DNA from: Pelagomonas calceolata
Lineage: Eukaryota
NCBI GenBank assembly: GCA_918797485.1
Contig: CAKKNE010000005.1
Span: 3,534,001-3,598,000 of the forward strand
DNA length: 64,000 nucleotides
Reading direction: 5' to 3'
Under the pieces are notes generated by a model that worked only from the letters and a program-made list of their open reading frames with translations, did no database searches and was not told where the DNA came from. Below are positions 1,672 through 48,975 of this stretch, piece after piece. The position numbers were made by a program, and so were the translations under genes. Each line of letters begins with the position of its first letter. Within the stretch, counting starts at the first letter, position 1.

Positions 1672-2987
1672 CTAGGAAGTACACTCGTACCCCTCGTCGT
1701 CGGGCTCGCACGGCTCGTTCGTCCACTGGTAGATATTATTGTAGTGGCAGCCTCTGTTCTGGCACCTCCCTGCATTGGACGAACCGCAGAGCGTCTTGCC
1801 GTACGTCGCGCAGTAGTTCATAGCGTCCGACCACGTCACGGGCGCCCAGGTGGCCGGTTGATTCCAATGTCCGGCGTTGCAGCTTCCGGATACCGTCCTG
1901 GTACAACCGGACGAGCCAGAGCCGTCGTCGTTGCAGCACGCGAACGCGATACCCATTTCAGATCCGTCGTCGCGAACTAACGCGTCCGGGTCCGTCTCGC
2001 AATATGGGGCAACGTCTTTGATCCCCCGAACCACCCGCACGCCACACTTTGGGAACTCGGCGCACGCGACTGGCAGGCCCGCGTCGCCGGCCTGACACTC
2101 CTGACCCGTCCACTGGTAGTGACCGTTGTAGTGGCACCCCCTGTTCTTGCACGGCTGCTCGACGCCGCAGAGGACCTTGCCCTCAGCCGCGCACACGTTC
2201 GTGGCCTCGTGCCACGTCTTCGGCGCGAAATTCGATACCGGATTCAGGAAACCCGCGTAGCACTCGCCGTCCGCATCCGCCCGCGTGCACGTGCTGTAAC
2301 GCATGTCGGCGTCGCAGCACGCGAAGGCGATCTTCTTGCCGGCGTGCTCGGTCGCCCAGGGATCATCTTCGCAATGGAAGCCGGTCCCATCGCCGCGGTT
2401 GATCCGCACACCGCACGTCGGGAACTCGTTCGTCGGTGAGGCCGTGGGCGCGGCACTGGGCTTGGGCGTCGGCGCCGGCGTCGGGCGCGGCGACGGCTCG
2501 GCGGTCGGAGCCGGCGTAGGCCTCGGCGACGGCCTCGGCGTCGGAGCTTGAGTAGGCTGCGGCGTCGGGTCGGGGAGACCGCCGACGCACTCGAGAAACT
2601 TCTCGGCGTTGATCAGGCCGGCGCCGAGCTGGCCCTCGTATTCGAGGTCGTCGATCTCTGTCGCATATTCGTAGGCGCACGTAAGTAGCTCGTTTCTCGT
2701 CGCCAACGGCTTGAGGGAGAAGCCGAGGGCGAAGATTCCCGCTACGACGGGGGTCGCCATCGACGTGCCGGACATGTAGACGTATCCGCTGTCTATATAC
2801 GTCGCCGCTATGCGAACGCCAGGCGCGCTGATGTCGACCTGTGTGAAGAATTATCGGAAGGCGTGAAATTTTTATTTCTGCACAGATCTCCACGCAGGGG
2901 CCGTAATTGCTAAAGGAAGCCTTCAAAGGGGGGTTGTACCTTGTGTCGAGTGCCGCGACGCTGACGACGCCGTCGTCAGTAAAATGC
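1672..2987 (-). pseudogene. 5'-truncated subtilisin-like (S8) protease + Pro/Thr linker + two Cys-rich repeat domains; intron 2839-2893
   Basis: Spliced read VVSVAALD...ASFSNYGPC|VDISAPG...YMSGTSMATPVVAG covers the catalytic Ser region. No catalytic Asp/His region or signal peptide is visible before the next gene's promoter. Two copies of a CGVR...IAFACC...TW.EA...C...GK.LC...C.NRGCHYN..YQWT..C domain follow. Confidence 0.55.
2839..2893 (-). mobile_element. 55-nt miniature introner-like intron
   Basis: GTGGAGAT|CTGTG...TCACACAG. The first 8 nt match the next exon start GTCGACAT at 6/8. Removal restores subtilase YGPC|VDISAPG. Confidence 0.65.
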
Positions 2988-3002
2988 CTGAAAAAGCTAA
3001 TA

Positions 3003-3026
3003 GCTAGCGGCCAGTAACACACTAGC
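3003..3026 (-). promoter_or_regulatory. Double-CTAG intergenic motif
   Basis: Reverse complement GCTAGTGTGTTACTGGCCGCTAGC. Confidence 0.6.
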
Positions 3027-3117
3027 AAACAGACAGTGGGTTCAGTTGGGCAGTGCACATAAAAATGGAGCACCCAGGGCTGCCCAAACGCATGCGTTGA
3101 GGCTGCCATCAACTAAA

Positions 3118-6100
3118 ATGAACGCCATGGAGTTCTACCTCCGGAGCGTCGACGCCCAGACCTGGCAGGACTGCGAGGCGGAGGGCGTAGACCCCGATGC
3201 CGCTTTAACAGAGCTGCCCTCGCCGGCGCCCGAGGCACCATCAATGATCGTCGAGGTCGCCCCGCCGGCTATTTTAAAACCGCCACCGGCGCCGGCCGTG
3301 CGCCCGCCTAAACCACCACAGTCGCCCCAGCGCCGCGTGCCCCAGTCTCCGGCCTCCGCGGCGTCCGCCCGGCGACACAGCCGCGTGCCCCAGTCACCCG
3401 CCGAAGCTGATGACCAGCAGGCACCTCTCTACGAGGCCGTCACCTTCCAGCCAACGCACCGGCGGCCGACCAAACAACCCATAGTGCGGTCGCGGCCGCC
3501 CCTAAGGCAGCGCGCCTACGACGCCCCGCACGCCGGCCGCGCCGCGCGCACTTTAACCGCGAAAACCAAAGGCCAGGAGCTCGTAAAATCCTGGCCCTGC
3601 CGCACGCCCATCATCTTAGATGCTGCAAATGCGAGAAGGGAGGCCAAAAATGCAGTGCACGCGCCGAAGGTTCGGATTGACCTCGAGTGGTGTTATGGGT
3701 TTGACACGTCGATCGTGGGGCGGAATTTATTTGCTATCGATCGTCAGCGAGTTATGTTCGCTTGTGCAGCCCTGGTCGTGATCTACGACACAAAAAAACA
3801 TACCCAGAAGTTCTTCCGCGGGCATGGGAGCCGCCGGGTCACTTCCCTAACAGTAGACAGACGCATCGCTTGTTCGGGAGACGCCCATTCAAAACCAGAG
3901 GTCTTAGTCTGGGACGTCGAAACGTTACAAGTCCTCCACCGGCTCGGGTCGGGCTTCTTCCACCACCATGTGCTCGTACTGTGTTTGTCACCAAATGCAA
4001 AAGCGTTAGTGGCCATCGACGCCTCGGAAACCCATAACCTCGGCTATTGGCGTTTAGATGATCTAAGACGATTAGCAAGATTGAAAAAAGAAAAACAGGA
4101 ACACCAAATCAGCGCGCGGGAAGCGCACGCCCACTGGGGCGGCATGGCTTCCAATGATGTGGCTTCGGACGATCTGAGGACCAAAGAGCAAAAACCAGCC
4201 GCATGTCGGCGGGCCGAGGTCCACGAGCCCCCCGCCGTGTATGATGGGTGCTGGATGTTCGAGGATGATACGAAGGAGGAACTCGTGGAAGGCGACCACG
4301 CGGGCGCGGGCGCGAAGCCGCAGTTCTGCACCGTGGGGCCCGGTGTGGAAATCAAATTTTACGGCGCGTTCGTCGCGTCGTCCTCCACGCCATCGGCGCG
4401 ACGCCTGCTCGATGGCGTGGCGATGCCGGTTCCTCGCCGCTCGACGGGGCCAGCACGGCCACGTCATCGCCGAGAAATGACTTAGTGAAGAACTATCGGT
4501 GCACGCGACACACTGGTTGATTTCCACACAGGTTGGGCCGGGGAGACACGTCAAGTTCTGGACGGCCTCCAAGGGCATTCGCGTCGATAATAATAGGGAG
4601 GACATGACGTCCGCCAAGCACCAGTGGCGCGTCGATAGTAAGAATGGACAATGGCCCACGAAAGACGAAACTACTCCCATGTTCCAATGTGTCTTCGTCG
4701 CTTCCACGCAAACATTATTGACGGGTGGGGGGGATGGTCAAGTATATGCGTGGAAGGGGCGGGTGTGTTTTGCGGTATTTCCGGTGCACGGTTCTACAGT
4801 GAAGGGCGTGAATCCGATTCGGCTCACCGTTGATAATGACAGGCTGTGTACCGGTGATTCAACAGGGAGGGTGCGGTGCTGGGGGGCGATACCACCTTCA
4901 GGTAAAGGTAGTAGTGCGGCGGGCTGGCGCGCGGGCGGCGCTCTTGTTGTCGATGATGCGAGGGGCATGGAAAAAGAGACGTCGCAGGGAGCGCCTTTGC
5001 GAGACGTCTGCTTTTTGGGAGACGACATGCTTGCGTTAACGTCACAGGGCGTCTTGGTTCGTATTGATACGAAGGGTGCGCAGTCCGTGCTGTTAAGTGG
5101 GCACTTCTCGCCGACGCCTACTACACAATTGCGAGCCTGCGCTACACTATCAAACAATAGAGTCGTGACGGCGGGCATGGACCGGCTGCTTTGTGTGTGG
5201 GACGTCGAGTCGAAGGAGCTGGTGAACTATACGCGGTTGTTGCGACCGGCGCGGTGCGTCGATGCTTCTGAGGGTAAAATAGCCGCCGGTCTAGATGACG
5301 GCAGCGTTGTGGTCGTGGATGCGTCCACGATGGAAACCTTGTTCATAATCAAGGGCGGCTCTCATACAAAAACAGAAGTAGAAGAAAGAAGGCACCACGG
5401 CCTCGGCCCGTGCGGCCTCATGGCCGCGCAATCCGCGGGCCAGCAGCACGAGGCTTTGAATGCCCAAAAGGTGTCGGACGACGGCGTCGACAGCGTGCGG
5501 CTCACGCCTGACAAAGTTGCGGTCGGGCGCCGCGACGGCTCGCTGCGCGTGTATGCCATGGACGGCGCGCAAGTCGTTTCATACAACAACTGCGGGAGCC
5601 GCATCATCCAGATCGACTGGGACGCCTCACAAAACTACATCAGGTGCGCCACGGCGGCGAAGGAGCTGCGGTGGTTCGACGTCAGCCAAAGGAAGACGAT
5701 CAGCGCGCGCCGCGCGGCGGAATTGGATTGGGAGAGCCCGACGACGGTCTTCGGGCGCCACTGCGTCGCGGCGTGGTCCTCTTCATTTATAGTGGCGTCG
5801 TGCCACGCCGCGCGGGGCGTGCTCGCTTCCGGAAGTGACGCGGGTATATTAAGGTTGCTCAAGAGCCCGGCCGTGGTCCGGGGCGCCCCCGGCGTCGACG
5901 CCGCGGCGCACGCCTCGTCCATCACTTCCGTAAGATGGAGCGGCGACCGCCTGTTTACGGTCGGCGGCCGCGACCGCGCTTTATTACAGTGGCGCGTCGT
6001 GCCTTTGATGGAGAAGAAGCCGCTCACGGCGCTCCAGAAGGCGCGCGCCTCCCGATTCTGGAAGGACGCGCGGTCGAAGCTCGCGCTCATCGCGAAGACG

Positions 6101-6701
6101 GCCAAGACGACCGTCGGGGCGCTGCCTGTTGACGACGACGACGACGACGTCGTGTCCACAACGTCGTCGTCGGCGGCGCGGAAGACGGGCGCGCGCTCGG
6201 CCCTCTGCCACCTCTGCGGCGCGGCGAACCCCGTCACGAGTCGGCTCCGCCATGTGGAGGCCTGCGCGGAGCGGTGGACGCGCGTGCACGAGGCGGCGCT
6301 CGCGGCGCCCGGCGACGACCTCGACGACCCGGGCGAGCTGCCGCCGGACCCACACGCGGGCGTCGTTTGCTCCCGCGTCCCTTTCCGACGCCATCGACGC
6401 GACTACCCTTCCTCCACGCCATCGACGCGAGGGGTCTACACTGCCTCTACGCCATCGACGCAACCGCTTCGGTCACTCACAGGACTTCGACGGGCTGAGC
6501 ATGCCCGAGCTGGACGCGCGCAACGTCGAGTCGGAGCGCGTCTTCTTCGAGCACGCGCTCGTGCCCTGCGAGCACTGCGGGCGGCGGTTCCGGCGGGACG
6601 CGCTCCGGAAGCACCGCGTCTCGTGCACGGCGTCGCGGCCGTTTGCGAAGCCGCTCGCGCGGCAGACTGAGGGACGTGTGAAGGTGAGTAATTGGCGTTA
6701 G
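3118..6701 (+). CDS. EML/EMAP-like WD40 protein (HELP-like motif) with C-terminal C2HC zinc fingers; join(3118-4332, 4532-~6355/6361, 6483-6701)
   Basis: LEWCYGF HELP-like motif, many WD repeats, AHASSITSVRW...TVGGRDRALLQW, zinc fingers CHLCG...H...C and PCEHCGRRF...H...C. Three track ORFs join through two introns. Confidence 0.75.
4333..4531 (+). mobile_element. Introner element (199-nt GT-AG intron with TSD and TIRs)
   Basis: GTGGGGCC (7/8 match to the next exon GTTGGGCC) + CGGTGTGGAAATCAA ... TTGATTTCCACACAG (14/15 inverted repeat); internal hairpin 4385-4420; splicing gives FCT|VGPGRHVKFW. Confidence 0.85.
6356..6482 (+). other. Intron with three copies of ACGCCATCGACGC (donor 6356 GC or 6362 GT)
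   Basis: Ends CTCACAG; removal joins the EML frame to the C2HC-finger frame DFDGLSMPELD. Confidence 0.6.
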
Positions 6702-8592: not shown

Positions 8593-8603
8593 CACAGTGA
8601 CAA

Positions 8604-9035: not shown

Positions 9036-9315
9036 ACCTGCGCGTGTGGGCCAGTCGCGCGGTCGCCGCGAGGCGACGGTGCGGTCCCGGCCGAGTCCCA
9101 CCACAGGCACCGGTTGCTCTGCGACGCGTGAAATGGGAGCGCCCGCGGCCACTGGGAAAGGCTCACTTGCGGGCGCGAAGATGATTGGCGTCGGACAGTT
9201 TGTTGTGCACGCTGGGCGCTTGCTGTGCGTCTTGGCGCAAGGCTTTTGCACTTATTCGCTGCAACGAGGCACGAGAGGCTGCAAAACTGCGACTGCAAAG
9301 AGTGCCGGGCTATTC

Positions 9316-10225: not shown

Positions 10226-10227
10226 TT

Positions 10228-12646: not shown

Positions 12647-13852
12647 ATGGCCCGCTGGACCCTCGCCCTCCTCGCCGCGACGCACGCCTTCCAACCACAT
12701 GCACCGGTACAAAGGTTACGACCGTTACGAGTAGAGGTCTTCGACGAGGCGACTTTGCTCGTAGAGCAGGCCGTCGAATGGAGCCGAGACGAGCACCCGC
12801 TCGCCGAACCCTGCGTCTGCGAGACGGCGGAGCCGATCGTGACGTCGACCATCTTCTGGAGTGTGGTCAATGATGCCTGTCAGTTTCCTGCGAAAGAAGC
12901 TAATATCATCTTCGATAAGGATGATTTCCCGGTGGACGAGTGGTCCGACATGGTGTCGGGTCTGGGTATTGAAGGTTTAACTTGTGAGGTGGAGGACGAC
13001 GCTCCTTTACCTTGCGTGAAAGTGACGGTTGATTGGTCACCGGAAGATGCTGGGTTCGTGAGCGACGAGATGGCGGACGCTTCTGTAGAATCCCTGAAGA
13101 CCTGGGTGCAGGACGTCATCGTCGACTCGAAGGTCTGCCCCTTCACGCGTTCCGCCGAGGTCGCGGCGACAGGACTAGAAAACCAAGGCGTCGAGAAGGG
13201 CCCCATCATGTACCCCGTCTGCGGCGCCGTCGGGTCAGGTGGCGCTGCTTTAGTTAGAGTTCTGAGGGCCTTCTGGGGGTCTTCCATAGACATGCTCTCG
13301 CAGCCGCCCTCACAGGCTTCTACAGTACTTTTAAGTGTACCGGCGTATGCGGAACGGGACCACGACGCCTTCGTTGACATGACACAAGTCGTCGTGAAGA
13401 CCCTGAAGCACATCGGCGCGGAGCACCAACTCTCACTAGTATTTTTTCATCCCGATTATGAGAGAGAGGTGATAGAACCGGTGGACTCGTTCACGCACGG
13501 CCACCTGCCCCCCCAAAAGTGGCTGCGGGCCTACGTGCGGCTCACGGAGGGCGAGGAGGTCGCTACGGGGTTGAGCGAGGCTCAATTAAAACACGCCGAC
13601 TATCAAAGGAGGGCGCCCTTCACGATGATAAACATTTTACGCTCGGAGCAGGTCGAGGCCGCCGAGGCGGTCGTCCCCTGGGAGGTCATCGAGCCCGAGC
13701 CCGATAGGCGGGTGCGCGTGTCCGGCGCGCGCGTCTACGCGAAGAACATCTGGCGCTTCGCGACGGACGCGTCGGAGCGGACGGTGGACGGCTACAAGTA
13801 CCTCGTGACGGGGGGCAAGGCCGGGAAGGGGCCGGCGGTCGGGGTTTCGTAA
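12647..13852 (+). CDS. Plastid-targeted DUF1415-like protein
   Basis: MARWTLALLAATHA-F presequence; WV.DVIV...VCPF, FHPDY and RRAPFTMINILR motifs resemble DUF1415. Confidence 0.6.
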   Translation: MARWTLALLAATHAFQPHAPVQRLRPLRVEVFDEATLLVEQAVEWSRDEHPLAEPCVCETAEPIVTSTIFWSVVNDACQFPAKEANIIFDKDDFPVDEWSDMVSGLGIEGLTCEVEDDAPLPCVKVTVDWSPEDAGFVSDEMADASVESLKTWVQDVIVDSKVCPFTRSAEVAATGLENQGVEKGPIMYPVCGAVGSGGAALVRVLRAFWGSSIDMLSQPPSQASTVLLSVPAYAERDHDAFVDMTQVVVKTLKHIGAEHQLSLVFFHPDYEREVIEPVDSFTHGHLPPQKWLRAYVRLTEGEEVATGLSEAQLKHADYQRRAPFTMINILRSEQVEAAEAVVPWEVIEPEPDRRVRVSGARVYAKNIWRFATDASERTVDGYKYLVTGGKAGKGPAVGVS

Positions 13853-13968
13853 GATCTATACATAAACTTACCGCGCCGAATACGCCATCGACGTGGCGCG
13901 GCGATGGCGTGGGGGCGGACATCCACGAGAACCCATACGCCATCGACGCGACGCTCCGTCGCAGATGG

Positions 13969-25395: not shown

Positions 25396-26305
25396 ATGGC
25401 AGAGGTGGCGCCAGCGGGCGCGAAGGAGGTCGACCAGCGGCCCAACACGCATGACCCCTTCTGGGACGGCCAGAATGATATTTTGAAGACCTACTCGCGC
25501 GCGCCTGTGTGGAATTATTGCGGAGACCTTCGCGAGCCTCCACGCCATCGAGCCGCAGCAGTTACGGAGGCAACGTCGAGTCTTGGCCTGGAATCTCCAC
25601 GCCATTGAGCAGACGCAGTCACGGGGGCGACGTCGCGTCGATGGCGTGGGGCGCCTGCGATTGATTTCCACACACAGGTTCAACTACGAGGCGCTCACGG
25701 CGTACAAGCAGAAGCTGCACCGATCGGAGATGCTTGGCGCGATAATTGTCCCGCCGTGCATGCTTCTTGCCCTTCTCTCATATCCTTGCGACATGGCCAA
25801 CATCCGCGACGAAGTGAACGCGCGCCACATCGCGCTGACGGCGGATGGATTACGTTACGTCGTGGACAAGCACCCGACCGGCTGTCGGTTACAGTGCCAG
25901 GACGAGGGCCGCAGCTCGCAGACCGTGCCCTACGACAAGATTACTGACTGCGACGTGGAGGAGCCGGCCGGGAGCGAGGGCTGCCCGTGCATGCTCGTGA
26001 AGCGCACGATGTACACGTTCAACGTCGCCACGGCGAACGGCCCGGCGCTAGGCAACGCCATGGCGGGCCCAGGCCTGTGGGGCATCGACGCGCCCTACGA
26101 ACTCAAGAAGGACGTGTGGTCCATGAAGCGCGGCCAGGGCATCGCCGGCGTCGAGGCGGCATACAACGCCGCGCCCTCGGTCGCGTCCATGGATCGGAGC
26201 GGCGGCGGCGGGGGGATCGGCGGCGGAAACTCCGAGCAACTCCTCGCACAGATACTCCAGTGCATCAAGGAGCAGAACAGCATCCTCGCCCAGTTGAAGA
26301 AGTAG
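25396..26305 (+). CDS. Membrane protein with a bacterial-PH-like domain, copy 1; join(25396-25496, 25678-26305)
   Basis: Spliced KTYS|FNYEAL aligns with uninterrupted copy 2; TM segment, then VPYDKITDCDVEEPAG...FNVATA (bPH_2-like, tentative). Confidence 0.75.
25497..25677 (+). mobile_element. Introner element (181-nt GC-AG intron)
   Basis: 8-nt GCGCGCGC + CTGTGTGGAAT ... TTGATTTCCACACACAG; CCACGCCAT/ATGGCGTGG hairpin; site empty in paralog copy 2. Confidence 0.85.
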
Positions 26306-26769: not shown

Positions 26770-27622
26770 ATGGCAGAGGTGGCGCCAGCGGGCGCGAAGG
26801 AGGTCGACCAGCGGCCCAACACGCACGACCCCTTCTGGGACGGCCAGAATGACATCCTGAAGACTTATTCATTTAATTATCAGGCGCTCACGGAGTACAA
26901 GCAGAAGCTGCACCGGTCATATTGTTTGGGACAACATATTTGCTTCCCGCCGGGGTATCTTATTGCCGCCCTCACGTACCCGTGCGAATTGCCGCGTCGT
27001 CCTCCACGCCATCGACGCGACGCCTGCTCGATGGCGCGGCGATGCCGGTTCCTCGCCGCTCGACCGAGCCAGAAGCACCCGACGCACTGGTTGATTTCCA
27101 CCCAGGTGCGACATGAAGAACATCCGCGACGAAGTGTACGCCCGCCACATCGCGCTGACACAGGATGGATTACGTTACATCGTGGACAAGCACCCGAGCC
27201 AGTGTCGGCTGGCGTGCCAGGACGTGGGCCGCAGCTCGCAGACCGTCCCCTACGACAAGATTACTGACTGCGACGTGGAGGAGCCGGCCGGGAGCGAGGG
27301 CTGCCCGTGCCTCCTCGTGAAGCGCACGGAGTACGTGTTCAACGTGGCCACGGCGAACGGCCCGGCGTTCCATTCCTCCATGAGCGTTGGCCTGCGGGGC
27401 ATCGACGCGCCCTACGAACTCAAGAAGGACGTGTGGTCCATGAAGCGCGGCCAGGGCATCGCCGGCGTCGAGGCGGCATACAACGCCGCGCCCTCGGTCG
27501 CGTCCATGGATCGGAGCGGCGGCGGCGGCGGGGGCGGCGGCGGAAACTCCGAGCAGCTCCTCGCCCAAATCCTCCAATGCCTCAAGGAGCAGAACAGCAT
27601 CCTCGCCCAGTTGAAGAAGTAG
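26770..27622 (+). CDS. Membrane protein with a bacterial-PH-like domain, copy 2; join(26770-26981, 27106-27622)
   Basis: Near-identical termini to copy 1; spliced TYP|CDMKNIRD aligns with uninterrupted SYPCDMANIRD in copy 1. Confidence 0.75.
26982..27105 (+). mobile_element. Introner element (124-nt GT-AG intron, 5' TIR absent)
   Basis: GTGCGAAT vs next exon GTGCGACA (6/8); 26993-27064 matches 4374-4445 at 70/72; ends CACTGGTTGATTTCCACCCAG; site empty in copy 1. Confidence 0.85.
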
Positions 27623-30352: not shown

Positions 30353-30755
30353 GTCGCGCCCGCGTGCGCGGGAAGTCGGGAGTCGCACGCGCGCGCTCAC
30401 GGACCTAGGGAAGTCTAAAAACTGTGTGTGTACATCCCCTTTAGGAGGTTAGACACCTCGCGCTTCGTAGGAGCCGTCGCGGCGGCCACGCGAGCGCCCC
30501 GCACTTCCTTCTCGCAGCTGTTTCACGCTCGCACCGCAGAGCAGCCAAGAAATTTGACAGGTGCGCCCGCGTGCAGGAACGTGCAGCCTCGCCCGCCCAT
30601 TGCCCGCCTCCGCGCCGCCGCGTCGCAGCTCGTCCGGCCGTGGCGGCCGTCGGAGAGGCTGCCCAACTTTTGTTCCAGCAGGAAGCTGCCCCACGCCCAT
30701 AGATAAGCGGCTCGTGCGAAGACCGCGCTCCCCACGCAGCGGCAGCGACGAAACC

Positions 30756-40600: not shown

Positions 40601-43600
40601 GAGTCGTACGCGTCGCGTTCGAACGCTATATAGTAGATAAAGCCGCCTTGCGGTACCCTTGCCCTCGAGACAACCATCAGGGCCTTTCGATCGGGGTGGG
40701 GCCTTTGTAAGGAAGGTAAACGCTCAAGAGCGTCCTTGACGGACGAAGCCGTCGCGTCCGTCGACAAGGGTCGCGTCCACGTCTCATCAGCACCCCACCT
40801 TACTCTCCACGTGCCTCGTAGTTGCGACGCCTCGCGCTCGAGCGCCGCCGACGCTTCATCTGATAAACGTGACTTGAGGCCCGCTCTTGATGCGTACGAC
40901 TTTGACCGTGTTATAGACGTGTTCATCAAATCCCAGACGTCTTCCTCGGCATCTATCAACGCAAGGACATCCCTATTCAAATTGTCGTTGCCCTCGACCG
41001 CGAGAACGCGCAAGAGCGGGAGGGCATGTGGGGTGTTGACAAAGGTAACTCTCCACACGGTCGTACCGGCATTGTCATGCTTCGACACGGACACAGAGGC
41101 CTCCTCCCCCAGATCGCCCCAATTAGGTAAGGACAACAGGTGCGCTTCCACCGAAGAATTGGGCCCCGGTAGACTGTGGGGCGGGTAGGCGTGATCGAAA
41201 CCGCGATTGAACTCCGCCATCCCATCCACTTCTTCCTCCACACTACCTGGCGCTATTCTGGGAATTGGTCTCGTGAACCGCAATGAGCCACTCGCGAGGT
41301 AGTGACTGCCACCTGAATAGATGGAGCAGTTCCGCGTGTCGAGGCCGATCCTCATGAAGTTCCTTCCACGCTTAAGTGATAGCGCATGGATGGATACGTG
41401 TGGATCGTGCGACACGTCGATTCTGTGTAATTGCGGGTCCCCGAATCTAGCACGTAATAGAGAGGACGTTACTGATGCGTGTTCGCCTCGCAAGTGCGAA
41501 CCGTCGACTCGCAGGTCGACCGAAGAGTCCATGAAGGTACAATGCCACTCGAAGCCGCCCGACTCACTTTCTCCCGATCTAGTTACTAACACGGCAGTGA
41601 CCGAGGGTAAGCTCATGAGAGCTCTTTCTAGGTCGGTGGACGACGCGTTATGTCGTACAGAAGTAGAGTAGCCCTTCACAAGGACAGAAAACGAACCATG
41701 AATAGCATTCGCGTGCCGCACCGTCTCCACACTTGGTTTGAGACCGTCCCAGATCGACGCATCCGCATGAATTAGGACAGGTGCCGACGCGGCTTCAGGA
41801 GTAGAACCTTCAAACGTAATGCGCCACTCGTGGCCGCCGTTCACTGGAGCCGGTCTAGAGTACCTACTACCGACGGACTTGTAGTACGACCGTCGCACTT
41901 GATAGTCGTCGACGTATCTAGCCCCTCCAAGCGAGTCGTAGCGGTCGTAGTGCTGCGACCCGAACGCGGCGTAATCCTCCCGCGTCACACTAACGCGGAG
42001 ACCGGCCCGCTTGACGTTCGGTAGGCTCATGAGTTTTGCTTCTACCGACTGGTGCGATAAATCACCATCTAAACCATCGCTTTCCCGCAGTCGTTCGCCC
42101 GCAGAACCCGTCCTTTCATCAGCAATTCTCGCGACGGCGTCGAAGGCGATAGGTTCGGTCGTGGCTCTTGTCGCGGCGCCGTCTGGTAAACCTTCTATAT
42201 TTGTTAAGTCCACGACGAGGCGAAAGGCTCCCCTTTCCACTTGCGACGCGTTCCATGAAGCGTTCACGACCCTGACGACGTGGACGGCCGTGGACCGCGT
42301 CGTGATTAGTGCTGAAGTTTTGATAGAATGGACCTCGAGCGCGCCTTCGCTCCTTGCGGACACTTTTAACGTTAGGGCACGGTCGTCGTCGTCCGACGCT
42401 TCCAGAGATGGTAGTGAGACCCAGTCGCTATCCTCCTTCATCAGAACGTCCTCAACATCCCCCGTTATGAGCGGTGGGTCGTTATAAGCTGCTGCTCTTA
42501 TACTGATAGAAGTGGCATTCGTCAAGACACCGTCAGAGGCCTCCACTTTCAAGGAACCAGAGATGTAGCCGTCGCGCTCCGCTATGGCATCATCAGGGAC
42601 CCACGTTAATGTACTGAGAGCAGCATTCAACGCGGCCTGGTTCGCTCTCAACGAAAGCGTTCGTTGATACGACGACGGCGACTCCGTCCCCGCACCACTC
42701 TCGACATCTTGGACGCGGCCAACGACCTTGACTCTACCAGAAGTAGCGGTCAACGTCACACTGACCACCTCAGAATCGGGGTCGTAGACGGACACGCCTG
42801 GGATGGGCGTTTCGGTCTTCGTGCCGTTCCTACCTAGTGCGACACCTTTCGACGCCTCGTCAAATAACACTTGAGATGGACTCGTGACGCGCGGCGCGTC
42901 AGCAACCGCATGGACGCGTATCGGAAGGGCTAGCGTCGCTATTAACGCATCTGAAACGGGAAAGCCGCCTCCATCGTCGGCGACGACGTCGACGACGTCG
43001 TCGCCAGACCAGTCCGGGGCACTCACGTATTCTAGCTTTGCGAGCGTGGAAGTTATCGACGAGGGCGTGCCCTTCAGTTCGATGCCATCATTCTCGAAGA
43101 GTATAGCACCAGACGCCGCCGCGAACGCCTTGCCTCCTTTTATATGTAACGAGCCGCTCCTCGCGGACACTCGCAACGAACACGTTACATCAGGTGCCTC
43201 CGCGTGATCGTAGTCCGGATCTACCAGGGAGATAGCTAGCGGTAGGTACGTGTCTTCCTCGACCTCATACGGTCCAGCACCAATGAGTACAGGAGCGTCC
43301 TGCACGCCCTCTATCGCAAGTTCTATGGTCGTGGCGGCGAGTTCTATATTATCTTCAGTGAGATTCAATCGTAAACGGGCGTGGCCGTGCCAGTCTTGTG
43401 ACGGGATTAATGTAATGTCGGCCAATGCGGCGCTCAAAGATTGTACGGTGCCGCTCAGGCGTAGTTCATCACTCTGTAGAACTGCGACGCCATGCTCCAG
43501 CCACGTGTCGTTCCGGAGCAGGAAGGCCGTGAAATGGTCGATGCTGATGGACAGGACGGCATCAACACTACCAAGGTCGTTCGGAACTAATGAAACGACC

Positions 43601-45009
43601 TCCCCATGACCACCCGTCGCAGGCCACCCGTGACTGGACCCGCCCAGCCTCATCACTTCGTCCTCCCGCGCGTGGACGGCGCCGTCCAACGCTGAGACGG
43701 CTTCTCCCGCAAGGAATTGCGGCGCGTCGGCGACCTCCTCTAGTTCGATAATGGCCGTGGCCTCGGCAGACGCGCCCGCCTCGTCGACGACGCGCATGTC
43801 GATCGACGCTTCGCCGGAGAAGTCTCTGGGAGGCTCGAACCGCAACCCATCCAAAGCTCGATTCACAGCGTCGACGCCGCCCCTCAATACTAACGAAGAC
43901 GAGTTCGGAGGCCACGCGCCATCGCCTTCGGCCGTGGCGATATTTATGCCGACGGGTTTCGCCGCTAGGAGTAATCTACCAGTACTTGCTACTAAGTCGA
44001 GGGACACGTCGTCGGCGTCCGCATCCGTTACGACGATGCCTCTTACGGAAATCAGCGCGTCCTCGTCACCCTTCCAAAACATGTCGCCCAGGAACGACGG
44101 TTTTGCGTTCGTCGGAGAGACGCGTACCGAACACGTCGCCTCCGACATTCCTAGGGAAGTGCCGTTCAATTCAGTTAAACCCGTGAGCTCGAAGCGTATG
44201 GCGTGCGTGCCTCGCTTTGCGCCTTTGTACACTAGCAGTTGCGAAGCGACCATCCTTCTTAGTGAAGCCGGCGAGCTCAACACCAAAGATGTGGGCGTCG
44301 CCACGGACAGGAGGGAGTCCGTGCCGTTCAGGATGGACACAACAGATGGCGAGGACCACGCGAGCTTCATGACTGGATAATCCTCGACGCCTCCACTAAA
44401 AACGAGAGGTATACTGGTGGAAGCACCCTCCTGCACCACTACGGGGGCCGAGCCGCATCCCAATAAGGTGGGTGGCGCCGCTGGCGCGACGTCAATATCC
44501 AGTGACGAGGGAGGGCCTCCGTCGACCGACGCCGTCACGAGATCGGGCCCCGGCGTGCGAGGCGGTTCATACGTAATACCGCAGGTCCTCAGCAGTGCCG
44601 TCAGTCGCAATGGCGTCGCTTCCAGCGTCAGCGGCGCGTCCTTCACGAGACGGACGCCATGCGCATCATGCGCCGTCGGCTTTAAGGTGATAGCGCCGCG
44701 GTCCGCCCCTATGACCAGAGACACCATCGAATCACCTCCGTCCACGTCATTGATCGTTGCGTTGTCGAGCACGCAGATTTGTGAGCCACCAGCTTCTGCC
44801 GTTAACGCACCGGAAACAAGCAGCGTCGCCGCGTCGTCGATAGGAGCGACGACTATAGGTATGACGGTCGAGGCATTATCAGCGTCGGCGTCGGTCGTGA
44901 CCTCTACGGTAATTTCGTCGGCGCCGTAGAAGTCGGCCTGCGGCTCGTAGACCAGCCTGGGGGCAGCGGTCTGGAGCAGGGCAGCTGCCACGAGTAGCCG
45001 CAGCATCAT
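31693..45009 (-). CDS. Giant secreted protein (4438 aa) with cadherin-like/Ig repeats and a C-terminal ELWxxDGT beta-propeller
   Basis: Signal peptide MMLRLLVAAALLQTAA; many (P/A)VNDAP ... L.Y.P..D..G.D.L..(V/A).D repeats; ELWSTDGS, ELWASDGS, ELWKTDGT, LWATDGT. Confidence 0.85.
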   Translation of the reverse strand: MMLRLLVAAALLQTAAPRLVYEPQADFYGADEITVEVTTDADADNASTVIPIVVAPIDDAATLLVSGALTAEAGGSQICVLDNATINDVDGGDSMVSLVIGADRGAITLKPTAHDAHGVRLVKDAPLTLEATPLRLTALLRTCGITYEPPRTPGPDLVTASVDGGPPSSLDIDVAPAAPPTLLGCGSAPVVVQEGASTSIPLVFSGGVEDYPVMKLAWSSPSVVSILNGTDSLLSVATPTSLVLSSPASLRRMVASQLLVYKGAKRGTHAIRFELTGLTELNGTSLGMSEATCSVRVSPTNAKPSFLGDMFWKGDEDALISVRGIVVTDADADDVSLDLVASTGRLLLAAKPVGINIATAEGDGAWPPNSSSLVLRGGVDAVNRALDGLRFEPPRDFSGEASIDMRVVDEAGASAEATAIIELEEVADAPQFLAGEAVSALDGAVHAREDEVMRLGGSSHGWPATGGHGEVVSLVPNDLGSVDAVLSISIDHFTAFLLRNDTWLEHGVAVLQSDELRLSGTVQSLSAALADITLIPSQDWHGHARLRLNLTEDNIELAATTIELAIEGVQDAPVLIGAGPYEVEEDTYLPLAISLVDPDYDHAEAPDVTCSLRVSARSGSLHIKGGKAFAAASGAILFENDGIELKGTPSSITSTLAKLEYVSAPDWSGDDVVDVVADDGGGFPVSDALIATLALPIRVHAVADAPRVTSPSQVLFDEASKGVALGRNGTKTETPIPGVSVYDPDSEVVSVTLTATSGRVKVVGRVQDVESGAGTESPSSYQRTLSLRANQAALNAALSTLTWVPDDAIAERDGYISGSLKVEASDGVLTNATSISIRAAAYNDPPLITGDVEDVLMKEDSDWVSLPSLEASDDDDRALTLKVSARSEGALEVHSIKTSALITTRSTAVHVVRVVNASWNASQVERGAFRLVVDLTNIEGLPDGAATRATTEPIAFDAVARIADERTGSAGERLRESDGLDGDLSHQSVEAKLMSLPNVKRAGLRVSVTREDYAAFGSQHYDRYDSLGGARYVDDYQVRRSYYKSVGSRYSRPAPVNGGHEWRITFEGSTPEAASAPVLIHADASIWDGLKPSVETVRHANAIHGSFSVLVKGYSTSVRHNASSTDLERALMSLPSVTAVLVTRSGESESGGFEWHCTFMDSSVDLRVDGSHLRGEHASVTSSLLRARFGDPQLHRIDVSHDPHVSIHALSLKRGRNFMRIGLDTRNCSIYSGGSHYLASGSLRFTRPIPRIAPGSVEEEVDGMAEFNRGFDHAYPPHSLPGPNSSVEAHLLSLPNWGDLGEEASVSVSKHDNAGTTVWRVTFVNTPHALPLLRVLAVEGNDNLNRDVLALIDAEEDVWDLMNTSITRSKSYASRAGLKSRLSDEASAALEREASQLRGTWRVRWGADETWTRPLSTDATASSVKDALERLPSLQRPHPDRKALMVVSRARVPQGGFIYYIAFERDAYDSGDFQTDPSQLRGPSTKRCRVTRLRDATNAGTVRINAIASLSRIEGDPHSGSTSFVVKGAPHSISDVLQTWAFQPARNYHGRVVVDASVKDGRNATAYHGLSIEVANQNDAPSVLFRDGAGALAVDEDAEARMTGIEVVDVDAAPGEVHTVSIEALHGVLAVHQTATDARFGGEASYTETLRRGGLQEANRGTSTNPGVLKRMPVNTQRVHPEAASSVNGSLIIQGSLSTINSALSTLSYISHEDWHGVDTVSISAEDASNASTTAELLVRVRPVNDVPAWHVDSTQRDAEAAHHPSHASSAGRGTSLLYGRYDHLSDVHDASAFYRRNNATLSHGVCVPVISAAVDAPVAYGTCAAKWSSPEDDCVDEEGCVSCDDDERWCMLDQERWCYCSTQVDVVVVPSRYVDEDQGCVLVGGLSIHDADVRFVYGRDFSSEVAWPAHLQISAAVDDGVVALRAGDKRGASAVLDQAFEGDVFENLEVVSGDASQGSSVLVMRGTLGAINLALGGLCYQSDENWNGVDVLRLTARDGGDAAHGAGGIKTSEVRLAVHVRGTRDAPVVTAPLMDVEALEDAVIQFGGEKTSEIYVSSTFSVVDGDLEDLTKPLRRWLVPASESLDSINTKTWTGPWREANRFDSDSTDGTFAYVDANHPTWLGSIEPHADAGQVSSAKHAFTRTQVKDSYSLHISSRRGGLRLPLSKDDDKTWPHAIVLQNYTLFETNRALQGILYKPDLHWNSQHAAQTLADVGTAGGVIDHDIALENITVVIEDATGFSGTASVLFFVHPVNDAPVLQQQNEVTHLENASSDQLTRLRLSTSTILVAEDSTIDAIGLNVRDVDCGDVAHGAMDVSAVVHRGTLSVDATDATVTGAGDMLHIHGSPVDVSNALGSLAYTPSKDYAGDDALFVTASDRGNVGRGGAQQTSLEVPLFVDSSCDAPVITPVKKVVSTNEDAGVSIGFEVADADHANLKELYDLHKFREYLYTDEDGYTLNTSATRTSATFFPEVQVMLTAGNGTLTLDSSIRSALTFVQGKGVAESTVTFRSTLQHAQTALAHVSYEPARDYFTFPLVDVAADTVTLEVDDLGNDFGGLPEGLGQRCDSLKTTGSIRIQINAVNDRPHVAVPGSVYRGLPGGTDRSSLRRDLELIRVKPLTVDEDAILELGHLVSVDDDGDDPRAFPAAEGALTVSVEQGTFWMDCSGEELEVRDAPFATQEQSTENGWRTGSIRIRVTPEDRDRCLKSLRFRGLKDDHSLNSTEPRAHLTVGYEDGGYGSIHEAAGVRGCRACAPAYGTSVVEPSLFDVKTIPIIILPKADPPSIHSPYDDGVSVVVDEDHDLYLPSIKVIDPDDAEASYVLRASTTHGAISLGVDAWFQSPLRYEVGDGDADKSIVARGPLSAVNAALAGLLYKPPRDFTATDEIDLLVEDLTNFGRTASLSIPLRVAPSVTWNDAPVLRIPNETRVGTPCLAAPQSSLLRTRGVSDKLKEYPQCDRRLAVAAFANFAEDVPRKAFAGISVSDADGSRLKVTLVTLRGTLRVDRFDSLGLESLVKEPKRLEVRGEPELLNKAFAQLEYVTDPNWYGVDHLNITVHDAHNHYDKATILLDVASRPDAPYVEMRRDDEASYYRGTTGETRYDEGNWKRVLQFEVNAEEDRRIRLPSLRVRDLDAEANSETLEAATRGGMTAASAIRELVGGVQVPQAFENHKIEQDATLRLDISVEHGKISLCSIRCPGVLFVEAAHDRDASRRTGPATDGDVVRQGWPELVEGGRAATGEILQLLDAAPVRREDGLLTGTNLKWWRNATLRGTAANLNAALWDMHYWPALNYNSDDGRSRDHLSLTIADGDKAHTVDAAISIAAVNDRPVVRAARLETVSVTNKGDTQTTGDGLSLVAVGVNDDALVTTEDEPLPLTDLFTVRDVDTDAALEIAITTTHGRSSFSSQVSEVVFLEPSDFVMSRGSSHIKFLATEAKANSLLASLIFTPLRDWHGKASLTVTCNDRGGLSHSQAVKIRVRKANDAPVVTAPELAGGYALYLDQGGRGKLEGASHEEAGRYYRQTMWTEEEASAYVYDEDVIEYQYPSSLEAHLGYELWSSRPTRDYDVDLKFYDSEPIVGWESAPVHDISRPRYFVNYQERLFFAAEDDQHGAELWSTDGSITNMNADIMPGRRGSDPRYLTKYEDLLYFSAAGHAADEWRIDPKYRDECDSMRRASFDSDVAFVVSANNVWEPGKTYDCPRGWRWMNSEEALTVFTGRNYGPSQGGRDENPLKKRHDLATDEERVYYSQCGWEAWSYENVQREHFRFSDSHVTGLYKAASSPDSRRPDVDLVKGGWRGVSLKTSRFAGIVCRADPDSYDVAPSGRELWASDGSPQGTFRAVNSASHSDPQYLCVFDGALFFGAMSEHGRELHRFSKEDEDGRGVMRLVADVRRGPDGSDPKYLQSCGNVLWFVANDGLRGDELYASDGGLGYLNRDAGDSANDNVLYEQRGESGTRLARDIRPGKGSSSPDHFVCLNNVLLFAASDDGHGRELWRAAWADLTDSTTLQVTRVADVHQGAGSSSPEYLAVLHNKVYFSADDGRVGRELWKTDGTKAGTRLVADARLGSLGSSPRYLTRLDNRLFYVARTPDPADEVDRSIEAPVATRLWATDGTRANTKPVFDTTVMDLDRRSLDEGGGALASLKNALYYPARRGAMQLDGGLNGGHASQRKGRPQAFAVHDADDDVLTLVLDVLPREAGGLSLDVAPPPSIEVLAGDLTRDSTQTFRGTSAQLNLLLADLWFVAAPQYAGAVEIQASVRDDPLHCIANVTDGCERGENATGVATMRVFVRRHNQAPTVSLVKGPIGASADGWNRFEGFASIGDPDADDADLGVDASTGLRIEPRLVVTVTVQKGVVSLGATDARLSFIEGTGVEDRRVVVDASVEALNDALGVVTYACENCELGSDTISVEVDDGGFSGLGGPLTASGSVEVSIVRR

Positions 45010-45234: not shown

Positions 45235-45318
45235 TAACTCTGCGGCTGTCTTGTCATCGATGCGTTTTGCCCTCAAACGAGGTAACAATGCATAACATGA
45301 GGGTGCCCTACCGATAAT

Positions 45319-47061
45319 ATGAGACTACTACCACTACTACTCGCGGGCGCTGGCGCCCTGCTGGCGCCCCCCCAACACTGGGCCAAACTGCACCTCAGCT
45401 CGACGCCGGCAAACATGCGCCTCAGGCTCGCCGCGGCGCCGGTCGAGCCCGAGATACCCGTCGCCGCCAGCGAGGTGCGGACCGACCTGACGGAGGAGCA
45501 GCGCGCCGCGTTACGAGCGTTCGCCGAGATCGACGTTGATGGAGACGGCGAGCTGACCGCCGACGAGATCTATCACGCGCTGTCGAAGAATGATGCGGAC
45601 GTGAGCCTCGAACACGTTAAAGAGCTTGTGGCCAAGGCCGACACCGACGGCAACGGCACCGTGAACCGGCAGGAATACCTCGCCGCCGTCGCCGCGGACG
45701 TCATGCCGACCATAATCGTCGACGCCGTCCCTGACGGCGTTATAGATATAGAGCCCGAGGAGCCCCGAGATGAGGCCGGCGCTGGAAGAGGAGGCGCAAG
45801 GTGGAGAGTAGTAGCAGCCTGGGCGCGCTGGGAGCGGGGCGGCCTCTTGTCGCATTTGGAAGAGGACGACCTCAATACCTTGAGAGACGCTTTAGCCGCG
45901 GCGGCGCCCGCCGCGGAGCTGGTCCAGACGTCGGCGGCCGACGCGCTGGAGGCGCGGCTGGAGATCGTCGAGGTCGTCCTGTGTGTGGGGGGAGACGCGA
46001 CGACGTGCGTCGCGGCCTTCGCCTCGGCCGCCGGTGGTACGGACGAGATAGGGGTGTCTTCATTAAGGAGGACGCTGGCGGCGCCCGTCGCCGCGGAGAG
46101 CGACCTCAAGCAGCAACATAATGCTGTGGACGCGTGGCTCGCCATCGATGCGTGCGCCGTCGATGTCAGACGCAAGGCCGCGGTCGAGACGACTGATGCT
46201 AGAGCATTAGTAGCGGAGCTCGCGACGACGGCCGTGGCATTGAGGCGGCTCGACCCTTTGAGGAGGAAGCGCGTCGCGCTGCAGGCGGTGCACGTGCATT
46301 TGCCATTAGGCGAATTATTAGGAGACACGCAGGCTAAAAGCCTCTCAGCACAGCAACAGGTCGCGTTTAGAAGATTATTGGACGACATCGAGGACCGGTC
46401 CTACGCGACGCTATTTCCCGAGTCGTACGCGCACGCGAAGCGCAACGTCGCCAAGGCAGCGGCGGCCGTCGGCCCGGCGGGCCCCGAGGCCTTTGCGGCG
46501 TCGTGTCGGGCGTCTTTATCGGAGACGATCGCGTCCTGCGATGTGTTACTCTCAAAATTTTTCCCGGACGACGCGACGGCGTTAACGCTGTCGGAGACGG
46601 CTCTGGTATTACCGCCCGCCGTGCGCGTCGAACGACGGTTAGTCGTGGAAGCTAGAGTCAAGACGGCCGCTTCCGCGTTGAGAAAGATGCTCGGCTCGGC
46701 GAACACGAAGGCCGTGCGCGACGTGCTCGGTTTACGGGTCATCGTGCTCGGCGCGCGCGCCGACGAGGACGCTCACCCTGATTCATTGTATGCCGTGCGC
46801 GACGCGCTGCACTGTTTGGGGAATGAGCTCAAGCATCGTTCCAAAGATTATGTGCGAGCGCCGAAGCCGTCGGGCTACCGGTCGCTCCACTCGACGCTGT
46901 TGCGGCCCTTGGACGGGTTGCTGGTCGAGGTCCAGGTGCGGTCGCGCGACATGCACTGGCACGCGACGTTCGGCGACGCGGCGCACGCGAAGTACAAGGT
47001 CGACCGGCGGGACCCGTTGTTGAGGGGCGCGGCGCAGAAGCTGCTGCCGGCCGCGGACTGA
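45319..47061 (+). CDS. Putative plastid RelA/SpoT homolog ((p)ppGpp synthetase) with two N-terminal EF-hands
   Basis: Signal peptide; EF loops DVDGDGELTADE and DTDGNGTVNRQE; synthetase motifs ARVKT..S..RKM, DVLGLRVI, KDYV..PKPSGYRSLH, EVQVRS..MH..A..G.AAH..YK. Confidence 0.85.
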   Translation: MRLLPLLLAGAGALLAPPQHWAKLHLSSTPANMRLRLAAAPVEPEIPVAASEVRTDLTEEQRAALRAFAEIDVDGDGELTADEIYHALSKNDADVSLEHVKELVAKADTDGNGTVNRQEYLAAVAADVMPTIIVDAVPDGVIDIEPEEPRDEAGAGRGGARWRVVAAWARWERGGLLSHLEEDDLNTLRDALAAAAPAAELVQTSAADALEARLEIVEVVLCVGGDATTCVAAFASAAGGTDEIGVSSLRRTLAAPVAAESDLKQQHNAVDAWLAIDACAVDVRRKAAVETTDARALVAELATTAVALRRLDPLRRKRVALQAVHVHLPLGELLGDTQAKSLSAQQQVAFRRLLDDIEDRSYATLFPESYAHAKRNVAKAAAAVGPAGPEAFAASCRASLSETIASCDVLLSKFFPDDATALTLSETALVLPPAVRVERRLVVEARVKTAASALRKMLGSANTKAVRDVLGLRVIVLGARADEDAHPDSLYAVRDALHCLGNELKHRSKDYVRAPKPSGYRSLHSTLLRPLDGLLVEVQVRSRDMHWHATFGDAAHAKYKVDRRDPLLRGAAQKLLPAAD

Positions 47062-47090
47062 TTGCTTGTGTTTATAATTTTGTGTCTGTC

Positions 47091-47801: not shown

Positions 47802-47909
47802 AATGGTGGATAGGCTGCCCCTGTGGTCTTTGCTGTTTCTAATTACGCTCAAGTGCAGCTTTGCGACTGCTATGCCCACTAAACAAGCGCTGCGCACCGC
47901 GCTCCATTT

Positions 47910-47933
47910 GCTAGTGTCTTACATGCCGCTAAC
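47910..47933 (+). promoter_or_regulatory. Double-CTAG intergenic motif
   Basis: GCTAGTGTCTTACATGCCGCTAAC between divergent starts. Confidence 0.6.
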
Positions 47934-48114
47934 CCTAAGAAAATAGTGGAGTCAGCCGGCGGATCTGCGGCCAGTGCTCAGCCGACAACATTAAGTGGAC
48001 ATAGTGAAGGCCTTCATAGGGTCCTTCTGCTCCCTCGTGCTGCCGCGAGCCAACTGTATCTCAGCCGTCAGCCTTTGACGTGGCATACAAAGCCTGCCAC
48101 CGTCCGTGAGCACC

Positions 48115-48975
48115 ATGCGGCCGCAAAAGAGCATGCCAACCCTGTCCCTGCCTCCAGACGTTGTCGGCGCGATATTCCAGTTCCTCAAGCCCGCCCACGT
48201 CTTAGATGCCGCCCCGACAGCGAAAGCGTGGGCCGAGGCCGGCGAATCAAAATTAGTCTGGGACGGCCTGGTCGCGCAAACAGTCGATACCGCTGTCCGT
48301 GATGTGCTCGCTGTCGGCGGCGCATCAACTCACAACGCGAAAGCGGACGCGGCCGTGCGAAACGCCCTCGACCGCTGCGACCAGAAATCTAACAAATGGG
48401 CGGCAAAAAATCCAGCCCTGGCGAGCGCCAAGGCGAAAGCCTGGTACAAAATAGGCGTCGCCTTACCCCCCGTCACGGCCGCGGTCGTCGCCGAGGTGTT
48501 ACCGTATCGATGCGTCATCTCGTTAGACCGGCGCGTCTACGACTGCACGAAGTTCGTGTTCGAAGGCAGCCCCTACCACCACCCGGGCGGCTCGTCGAAC
48601 ATCCGGCGCGAGCATGGGAGGGACGTCGGGCGTTTTTTTGACATCTTCGCGCACGCAAAAAGCTGTGTGGAAATCAAATTTCAGGCGAATTACTTCTGCG
48701 TCGGCTCGAAGAACCTAACTCACTGGTTGATTTCCACACAGACTATGACCGCGCATCGGTTGATGCGCAAGGATATGCTCGCCTGGGACGGCCCGTTGCA
48801 CGCCGGCGCGCCGTCTCTCCCGGCTTGTGTGCTGACAAGGGCGCGGCGGCGACGACGCCACGTGAGCGAGGCATCTTCATCACGATTCTCGCTCGGCCAC
48901 CTCATCTTCGGAGCATCGTTAGCGATGCTGTGCCGCGTCGCGAGCCGCTGGACCTCGGCAATAGATCTAAGTTGA
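48115..48975 (+). CDS. F-box-like + cytochrome b5 heme-binding domain protein; join(48115-48654, 48742-48975)
   Basis: LSLPPDVVGAIFQFL...W F-box; VYDCTKF...HPGG...GRD...F...H|T..A..LM b5 motif; hydrophobic C-tail. Start 48115 or 48133. Confidence 0.7.
   Translation: MRPQKSMPTLSLPPDVVGAIFQFLKPAHVLDAAPTAKAWAEAGESKLVWDGLVAQTVDTAVRDVLAVGGASTHNAKADAAVRNALDRCDQKSNKWAAKNPALASAKAKAWYKIGVALPPVTAAVVAEVLPYRCVISLDRRVYDCTKFVFEGSPYHHPGGSSNIRREHGRDVGRFFDIFAHAKSCVEIKFQANYFCVGSKNLTHWLISTQTMTAHRLMRKDMLAWDGPLHAGAPSLPACVLTRARRRRRHVSEASSSRFSLGHLIFGASLAMLCRVASRWTSAIDLS
48655..48741 (+). mobile_element. Introner element (87-nt GC-AG intron, in frame, perfect 15-bp TIR)
   Basis: GCAAAAAG + CTGTGTGGAAATCAA ... TTGATTTCCACACAG. 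Confidence 0.85.

What the first reader, a model, noticed from the sequence alone, without database searches (positions are those of the whole stretch)
2839..48741. Family of intron-generating elements: 8-nt donor/TSD + 15-bp TIR that supplies the 3' splice site
Seen: five introns in four unrelated gene types (2839-2893, 4333-4531, 25497-25677, 26982-27105, 48655-48741). Four end in TTGATTTCCA..CAG and the 55-nt one ends in TCACACAG. In four, the inverted end C(T/G)GTG begins exactly 8 nt after the GT/GC donor. In three, those 8 nt match the next exon's first 8 nt at 7/8, 6/8 and 6/8. Two share 70/72 internal nt. Established: Aureococcus introner elements were described as non-autonomous DNA transposons with 8-bp TSDs whose TIR carries one splice site, with the other co-opted from the TSD. 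Inference: insertion is removed by splicing without changing the protein. Sizes of 55-199 nt and decayed TSDs suggest an ageing family. No transposase is present in the window.
Basis: partly seen in the sequence, partly recalled or inferred. Interest (0 to 1): 0.8.

Follow-up and report, generated by a model that had tools for sequence, protein, structure and literature searches.

The report
Known intron-making transposon in marine alga
Five introns in this algal DNA are copies of one roughly 200-base element with transposon-type ends, three of them shown by RNA reads to be cut out exactly; it is very likely the intron-making transposon family already catalogued in the alga Pelagomonas calceolata, so it is real but not new.

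Summary
RNA reads splice three of the five introns at the stated coordinates; the other two were not covered and rest on homology. Two tandem paralogues each carry one intron that the other lacks, with colinear spliced reading frames. In 96 marine-metagenome copies the element is 203 nt at full length, with a 15-bp TIR and an 8-bp TSD (43 of 96 perfect). It makes introns in either orientation (38 vs 42 of 80): each TIR ends in CAG and the donor GT/GC comes from the TSD. No transposase or long copy was found. The mechanism is published for Aureococcus, and Gozashti 2025 lists a P. calceolata family of matching anatomy (fam2: 340 copies, 202 bp, hAT, co-opt 5' / carry 3'); I could not compare sequences, and no tool named the organism. 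The scan noted other introners in other genomes, none in this one. One side lead: three further RNA-confirmed introns carry a decayed TIR-like end 9 nt after the donor. Verdict: real, already known.

The parts
2839..2893 (-). I1: 55-nt phase-0 intron, GT donor, heavily deleted copy (intronic TSD 2886-2893, left TIR 2871-2885, right end 2839-2853; exonic TSD 2831-2838) in a subtilase-domain gene
   Evidence: TSD 6/8; left TIR 12/15; spliced peptide aligns without a gap at the junction to 3 subtilases among 16 hits; no RNA laid
4333..4531 (+). I2: 199-nt phase-0 intron, GT donor, near-complete copy (TSD 4333-4340 and 4532-4539; TIRs 4341-4355 and 4517-4531) in an EML-type WD40 gene
   Evidence: TSD 7/8, TIR 14/15; 181 of 191 aligned nt match the family consensus; Pfam EML propeller runs across both exons; no RNA laid
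25497..25677 (+). I3: 181-nt phase-2 intron, GC donor, diverged copy in reverse orientation, TSD decayed (2/8), in paralogue A
   Evidence: RNA joint in 64 and 57 reads; profile match is on the minus strand, E 3.6e-9; absent from paralogue B
26982..27105 (+). I4: 124-nt phase-2 intron, GT donor, left TIR deleted, TSD 6/8, in paralogue B
   Evidence: RNA joint in 60 and 34 reads; 112 of 116 aligned nt match the consensus; absent from paralogue A, whose site matches the exonic TSD at 7/8
48655..48741 (+). I5: 87-nt phase-0 intron, GC donor, perfect 15-bp TIRs (48663-48677, 48727-48741), TSD 3/8, in frame and stop-free, in an F-box/cytochrome b5 gene
   Evidence: RNA joint in 45 and 50 reads; spliced peptide continues the b5 His motif as in homologues
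25396..26305 (+). Host paralogue A (242 aa spliced, no Pfam family on a close homologue); natural empty site for I4
26770..27622 (+). Host paralogue B (242 aa spliced); natural empty site for I3
1672..3112 (-). Host of I1: subtilase C-terminal part (PF00082); 5' structure not resolved
3118..6701 (+). Host of I2: EML-type WD40 protein, probably with a second intron near 6350-6480
48115..48975 (+). Host of I5: F-box-like plus cytochrome b5-like protein

Best explanation
The five introns are copies of one 203-nt element with 15-bp inverted ends and an 8-bp target duplication, likely a non-autonomous cut-and-paste transposon, and splicing removes the element plus one duplicate so that the message is restored (shown by RNA for three, predicted for two). 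Steps: (1, inferred) a transposase encoded elsewhere, probably hAT-type, inserts the element and duplicates 8 bp. (2, shown) Both ends read CAG at the 3' end of their own strand, so an acceptor is offered whichever way it lands. (3, shown statistically) Copies in coding DNA are found almost only where the duplicated 8-mer begins with GT or GC on the gene's strand; that dinucleotide is the donor. (4, inferred) This bias comes from selection against unspliceable insertions, since no further target preference was detected. (5, shown for I3, I4, I5) The spliceosome cuts from the first base of the upstream duplicate to the last base of the element, giving a 211-nt intron for a full copy and no change in protein length. 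(6, inferred) Afterwards the interior is deleted and the intronic duplicate drifts, giving the 55-199 nt copies here. The host is likely Pelagomonas calceolata or a close relative and the family likely its published fam2 (about 85%).
For: RNA joints at exact coordinates for 3 of 3 introns laid. Reciprocal presence/absence in tandem paralogues with colinear spliced CDS. Reads from other copies leave the window's sequence exactly at 48663 (50 and 36 reads) and 48741 (485 and 439 reads) with mixed flanks whose consensus starts GT. Metagenome scan: 121 stretches, about 2100 estimated. In the 96 of 121 distinct copies with both ends and flanks, flank identity peaks only at k=8 (0.82 against 0.36 shuffled, other k 0.20-0.32), 43 perfect. 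94 of 96 have GT/GC at a TSD start on one strand, background 0.32. Where only one strand offers a donor and the coding strand could be called, they agree in 61 of 63. 77 of 80 oriented sites have GT/GC; orientation 38:42; GT phases 30/3/23 fit GT availability in codons (p 0.12) and not uniformity (p 3e-5). Literature.
Against: No transposase, long copy, or same-allele empty site was found. I3 and I5 have lost the TSD (2/8, 3/8), so their origin rests on the TIRs and the family. I1 and I2 have no RNA test. The copy set is biased: it needed an exact 21-nt right end and came from 4 of 64 parts of the collection; 25 of 121 copies were left out for lack of a left TIR at 3 mismatches or fewer or (by subtraction, none further) short flanks, and 6 more from the strand test. 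The strand call is my own codon score trained on 14 window genes. No tool named the organism, and the published family's sequence was not in the files I could read. Relatives carry element sequence at the I4 and I5 sites, so those two insertions are not recent.
Confidence: 0.93

Rival explanations
1. These are older introns into which a MITE later jumped, so the element did not create them.
For: I3 and I5 show no clear TSD. Relatives at 94% and 66% protein identity have an interruption at the I5 site.
Against: The second TSD copy lies in the exon and the element's last base is the acceptor. Paralogues lack the introns. In 77 of 80 oriented copies the donor sits exactly 8 nt from the element. 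The relatives' interruptions are the same element.
Confidence: 0.03
2. The introns spread by reverse splicing of excised intron RNA and reverse transcription, not by DNA transposition.
For: No transposase was found; the I2 intron folds better than shuffles (z -3.5), which the TIR alone can explain.
Against: A spliced-RNA route would copy the whole intron in the sense orientation without an 8-bp duplication. Here the first 8 nt differ per site and match the local exon, and both orientations occur equally.
Confidence: 0.02
3. It is an introner as described, but the mobilising transposase is not hAT; P, Merlin or Mutator-type enzymes can also leave 8-bp duplications (own knowledge). This rival concerns only step 1.
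For: No partner was found. The published hAT label rests on a blastn hit to a non-autonomous Emiliania element. No excess of A at TSD position 7 beyond the donor constraint (19 of 80, p 0.08).
Against: TSD is fixed at 8 bp with a short TIR starting with C, typical of hAT (own knowledge), and the published table calls the matching family hAT.
Confidence: 0.25

Closest known systems
Pelagomonas calceolata introner fam2 (Gozashti et al. 2025, PMC12130899, Dataset S2 rows seen)
   Same: TIR DNA element of 202 bp (sister rows fam3 and fam39: 203 bp), GT 281 / GC 42 donors of 340, AG acceptor, mechanism 'co-opt 5' carry 3''. Here 203 nt, GT 65 / GC 12 among 77 oriented donors, same mechanism.
   Different: The table gives TIR 13 and no TSD length for fam2; I measure 15 bp and 8 bp. 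No sequence was in the files I could read, so identity is by anatomy only.
P. calceolata putative introner elements (Guerin et al. 2022, PMC9481584; passages and Supplementary Note 3 seen)
   Same: 956 putative IEs, intron length peak near 210 bp (203+8 = 211 here), GT and GC donors, AG acceptor, conserved TIR, 63% GC genome.
Aureococcus anophagefferens introner elements (Huff et al. 2016; not held; known from recall and from passages of Roy et al. 2020 bioRxiv, and table rows of Gozashti 2022)
   Same: One splice site carried, the other taken from the TSD; 8-nt duplication; introns in either orientation; about 200 nt.
   Different: Different organism; sequence relationship not tested. The +12-bp variant of Aureococcus sp. 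(Gozashti 2022 Fig. 2F legend) does not apply: the listed RNA joints for I3 and I5 use the TSD donor.
Polarella glacialis ILE classes 6, 8, 10 (Roy et al. 2020, 10.1101/2020.10.14.339549; passages seen)
   Same: 8-nt TSD supplying the donor, element supplying the acceptor, either orientation.
   Different: Dinoflagellate host, GA donors allowed, orientation biased; here only GT/GC and no bias (38:42).

Membership tests
Introner (TIR/TSD type) | Sequence-similar introns at unrelated gene positions | tested here: met
   Five in four gene types; 121 further stretches
Introner (TIR/TSD type) | Spliced out of mRNA at element-defined boundaries | tested here: met
Introner (TIR/TSD type) | Terminal inverted repeats and a fixed-length TSD | tested here: met
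   15/15 TIR in the consensus; TSD peak at k=8 only
Introner (TIR/TSD type) | One splice site carried, the other co-opted from the TSD | tested here: met
   77 of 80 oriented copies; 61 of 63 strand agreement
Introner (TIR/TSD type) | Empty homologous sites (gain, not loss) | tested here: met
   Reciprocal in paralogues for I3 and I4; no empty allele found among fetched loci; not tested for I1, I2
Introner (TIR/TSD type) | Insertion into nucleosome linkers | not testable with these tools
   No genome or chromatin data held
hAT superfamily (non-autonomous) | 8-bp TSD and short TIR | tested here: met
hAT superfamily (non-autonomous) | Autonomous partner with the same TIRs encoding a hAT transposase | tested here: inconclusive
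   None in 69 window ORFs or exons and 10 locus ORFs; longest copy 294 nt; whole genome not available
P. calceolata fam2 (Gozashti 2025) | Length, splice sites and mechanism | tested here: met
P. calceolata fam2 (Gozashti 2025) | Sequence identity to the published family | not testable with these tools
   TIR motif not found in the supplements held or in any relevant paper text
P. calceolata fam2 (Gozashti 2025) | Host species | tested here: inconclusive
   No named close homologue; marine eukaryote of about 63% GC

The most novel reading that the evidence does not exclude
Most of the remaining 'ordinary' introns of this alga are decayed introners of an older sister family with a 9-nt donor-to-TIR offset. 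Three of the four other RNA-supported introns examined here match the left TIR at 10, 9 and 9 of 15 positions exactly 9 nt after the donor (chance about 0.0025 per GT/GC site). The genome would then hold a complete series from fresh transposon to generic intron, and TSD co-option would account for much of the species' 14% GC-AG introns that a preprint ascribes to GC content.
Probability: 0.3. Interest if true: 0.5.

Novelty: already known. Interest (0 to 1): 0.22.

Why it matters
Introners are the best documented route to mass intron gain, and this is a clean example in an abundant open-ocean alga. The mechanism has been in print since 2016 and a family of the same anatomy is listed for P. calceolata, so it does not open a new question. 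What it adds is detail: TSD length, unbiased two-way insertion, phase bias explained by codon GT availability, a paralogue pair with reciprocal empty sites, and a lead on an older layer of decayed introners.

Tried and rejected
Whole-genome search: no genome is held for the window or for the three loci tried. Alternative donor inside the left TIR that would add 12 nt (as in Aureococcus sp.): the listed joints for I3 and I5 use the TSD donor; the joint tables were cut (2 and 46 rows hidden), so a minor isoform is not excluded. In-frame retention of I5: the spliced joint is seen; retention level was not quantified. Viral carriage: one 18-nt hit in a phage-like contig (L121) with no further similarity, rejected as chance; the left-end pattern gave 0. 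Autonomous copy: of 16 copies without a left TIR and with over 300 nt upstream, about half show a degenerate left end within 210 nt and the rest are unresolved (11 had only about 300 nt of flank); the ORFs of L059 and L062 have no transposase family. Empty alleles among the 121 loci and the window: none. Target preference beyond the donor: not significant. Other TIR+TSD families in loci and window by de novo search: none recurrent. Further clear copies in the window: none. Naming the organism through homologues: failed. Distant homologues are proteins only and cannot show intron presence; P0090 reads through both the I3 and I4 positions on a contig of up to 22.8 kb, a weak hint of an empty genomic copy. 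Paper searches: introner+Aureococcus+TIR, introner+Pelagomonas (9), 2023+ introner papers (31), orientation (49), Pelagomonas+hAT (50, none), TIR motif (54, one irrelevant hit), hATv (62).

Full report
Observation. I1 (2839-2893) only makes sense on the minus strand, where it starts with GT, has the inverted end 8 nt in, and ends in CAG. First-8 against next-8 matches are 6, 7, 2, 6 and 3 of 8 for I1-I5. The left TIR matches the consensus at 12, 14, 11 and 15 of 15 at offset 8 in I1, I2, I3 and I5 and is deleted in I4. I2 and I4 share 70 of 72 internal nt. The acceptor-end pattern occurs 5 times against 0.03 expected.

Are they introns? I5 is skipped exactly (GC..AG, 87 nt) in 45 and 50 reads and one contig. 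I3 (GC..AG, 181 nt) is skipped in 64 and 57 reads and I4 (GT..AG, 124 nt) in 60 and 34 reads, both also in contigs of two other runs. The raw-read runs are one sample and may be the window's own strain. For I1, the spliced peptide aligns without a gap at the junction to 3 subtilases among 16 hits; for I2 it restores the EML motif, with weak scores (E 0.007-0.01) against four fish proteins, and the Pfam EML propeller is split across the two exons. I5 is in frame and stop-free, yet is spliced, and the product continues the cytochrome b5 His motif.

Are they gains? Genes A (25396) and B (26770) are tandem paralogues. I3 is only in A, I4 only in B, and the spliced sequences align without gaps at both junctions. 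The empty site in A matches I4's exonic TSD at 7 of 8 and differs at the wobble base that forms the G of the donor; the empty site in B likewise has A where A has the wobble G. 71 of 72 homologue alignments spanning the I3 junction have no gap there; at I4, a variable region, 33 of 76 have none, including 27 of the 28 above 60% identity. The exception, P0091, reads through a copy of the same element at that site, and P0281 (94%) and P0285 (66%) do so at the I5 site. These two insertions are therefore shared with relatives, or were repeated; from protein alone the TIR in P0281 starts 9 nt after the His codon against 8 nt here.

The family. Reads from other loci leave the window's sequence exactly at the two ends of I5's element, with mixed flanks (agreement about 0.5) and a consensus starting GT behind the right end, so the host has many copies. 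An exact 21-nt scan of metagenome contigs returned 121 stretches from 4 of 64 parts, about 2100 estimated. Of 121 distinct copies, 96 had both ends and flanks; 25 had no left TIR at up to 3 mismatches and were left out. Flank identity peaks only at 8 bp (0.82; shuffled 0.36), 43 of 96 TSDs are perfect, lengths run 54-294 nt with a mode at 203. The consensus of 24 near-full copies has a perfect 15-bp TIR; those copies are 73-97% identical to it. I2 matches at 181 of 191, I4 at 112 of 116, I1 and I5 keep only the ends, and I3 is a diverged copy in reverse orientation.

Mechanism. Each TIR ends in CAG on its own strand. 94 of 96 TSDs begin with GT/GC on one strand or the other (36 forward only, 38 reverse only, 20 both; background 0.32). 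With a codon score trained on 14 window genes, the coding strand agrees with the donor side in 61 of 63 callable one-sided cases; 5 were unclear and 6 of the 96 had short flanks. Among 80 oriented sites 77 have the donor in the intronic TSD, orientation is 38:42, and GT-intron phases (30/3/23) follow the availability of GT in codons. No other target preference was significant, so the donor rule is best read as survival of spliceable insertions (inference). Shorter copies have more decayed TSDs (mean 7.5 of 8 at 195-210 nt, 5.9 below 120 nt), consistent with deletion and drift after insertion (inference). Transposition itself and the enzyme are inferred: no transposase family was found in 69 window ORFs or exons or 10 locus ORFs, and no long copy was seen.

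What is known. Roy et al. 2020 (passages) describe for Aureococcus anophagefferens one site carried and one taken from the TSD, and an 8-nt, either-orientation pattern similar to it; Huff et al. 2016 itself is not held and is recalled. Guerin et al. 2022 (passages and Supplementary Note 3) report 956 putative introners in Pelagomonas calceolata with a 210-bp peak, GT/GC donors, AG acceptors and TIRs; the figure and IE table could not be seen and may hold the sequence. Gozashti et al. 2025 (passages and Dataset S2 rows) list 11 P. calceolata families; fam2 has 340 copies, 202 bp, TIR, hAT, co-opt 5' / carry 3'. Gozashti et al. 2022 (passages and table rows) list small families in Pelagomonas MAGs. 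A review (PMC11282704, passages) gave background only. No tool named the host; a 63% GC marine eukaryote with this intron anatomy points to P. calceolata or a close relative (inference, about 85%). Earlier scan notes hold similar introners in other genomes and nothing for this one.

Side lead. Of four other RNA-supported introns examined, three (9038-9223 minus, 24063-24218, 30161-30289) match the left TIR at 10, 9 and 9 of 15 at offset 9, against 0.0025 per random GT/GC site; ten offsets were looked at, their right ends match poorly (5, 5, 7 of 15) and only the first shows a TSD-like match. The fourth (30561-30739) has no such signal. The joint tables were cut, so these four are not all introns of the two stretches. 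A published P. calceolata family (fam5) has a 9-bp TSD call. A preprint (10.1101/2024.10.30.620910, passages) ascribes the species' 14% GC-AG introns to GC content; this family's GC share is 12 of 77.

Verdict. Real, correctly interpreted, and very likely already catalogued. Interest 0.22.

Noticed in passing
window 9038-9223 (-), 24063-24218 (+), 30161-30289 (+): RNA-supported introns with a decayed TIR-like sequence exactly 9 nt after the GT/GC donor (10, 9, 9 of 15); possibly an older 9-bp-TSD introner layer.
   Followed up: partly
window 24088-24160: A tRNA-Arg(UCG) gene lies wholly inside the spliced intron 24063-24218 of a triose-phosphate transporter family gene, on the same strand.
   Followed up: partly
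window 15372-15444 (-): tRNA-Trp(CCA); 51 and 26 reads run from its end back to its start with about 32 foreign letters between, as from a tandem tRNA array elsewhere or a circular form.
   Followed up: no
window 6380-6470, 13850-13960, 52280-52330: The element's internal palindromic motif occurs without TIRs, in a probable second EML intron, between two convergent genes, and upstream of the RPS6 start.
   Followed up: partly
window 48655-48749; proteins P0281, P0285: Relatives read through a longer copy at the I5 site whose TIR appears one base further from the His codon; I5's exonic TSD also offers a GT on the minus strand. Intron sliding or parallel insertion.
   Followed up: partly
window 27075-27107: Over 2400 reads per run carry the element's right end followed by one foreign flank (agreement 0.94), so a copy elsewhere seems retained in an abundant transcript.
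   Followed up: no
window 31693-45009 (-): Intronless 4438-aa ORF with bacterial Ig and cadherin-like repeats in a low-GC stretch (56-60%), transcribed over its length; a candidate lateral acquisition.
   Followed up: no
window 1672-3112 (-): The subtilase gene seems to hold only the catalytic-Ser part, with its 5' end abutting the EML start; it may be truncated or have unrecognised upstream exons.
   Followed up: no
window 45319-47061 (+): EF-hand plus RelA/SpoT domain protein.
   Followed up: no
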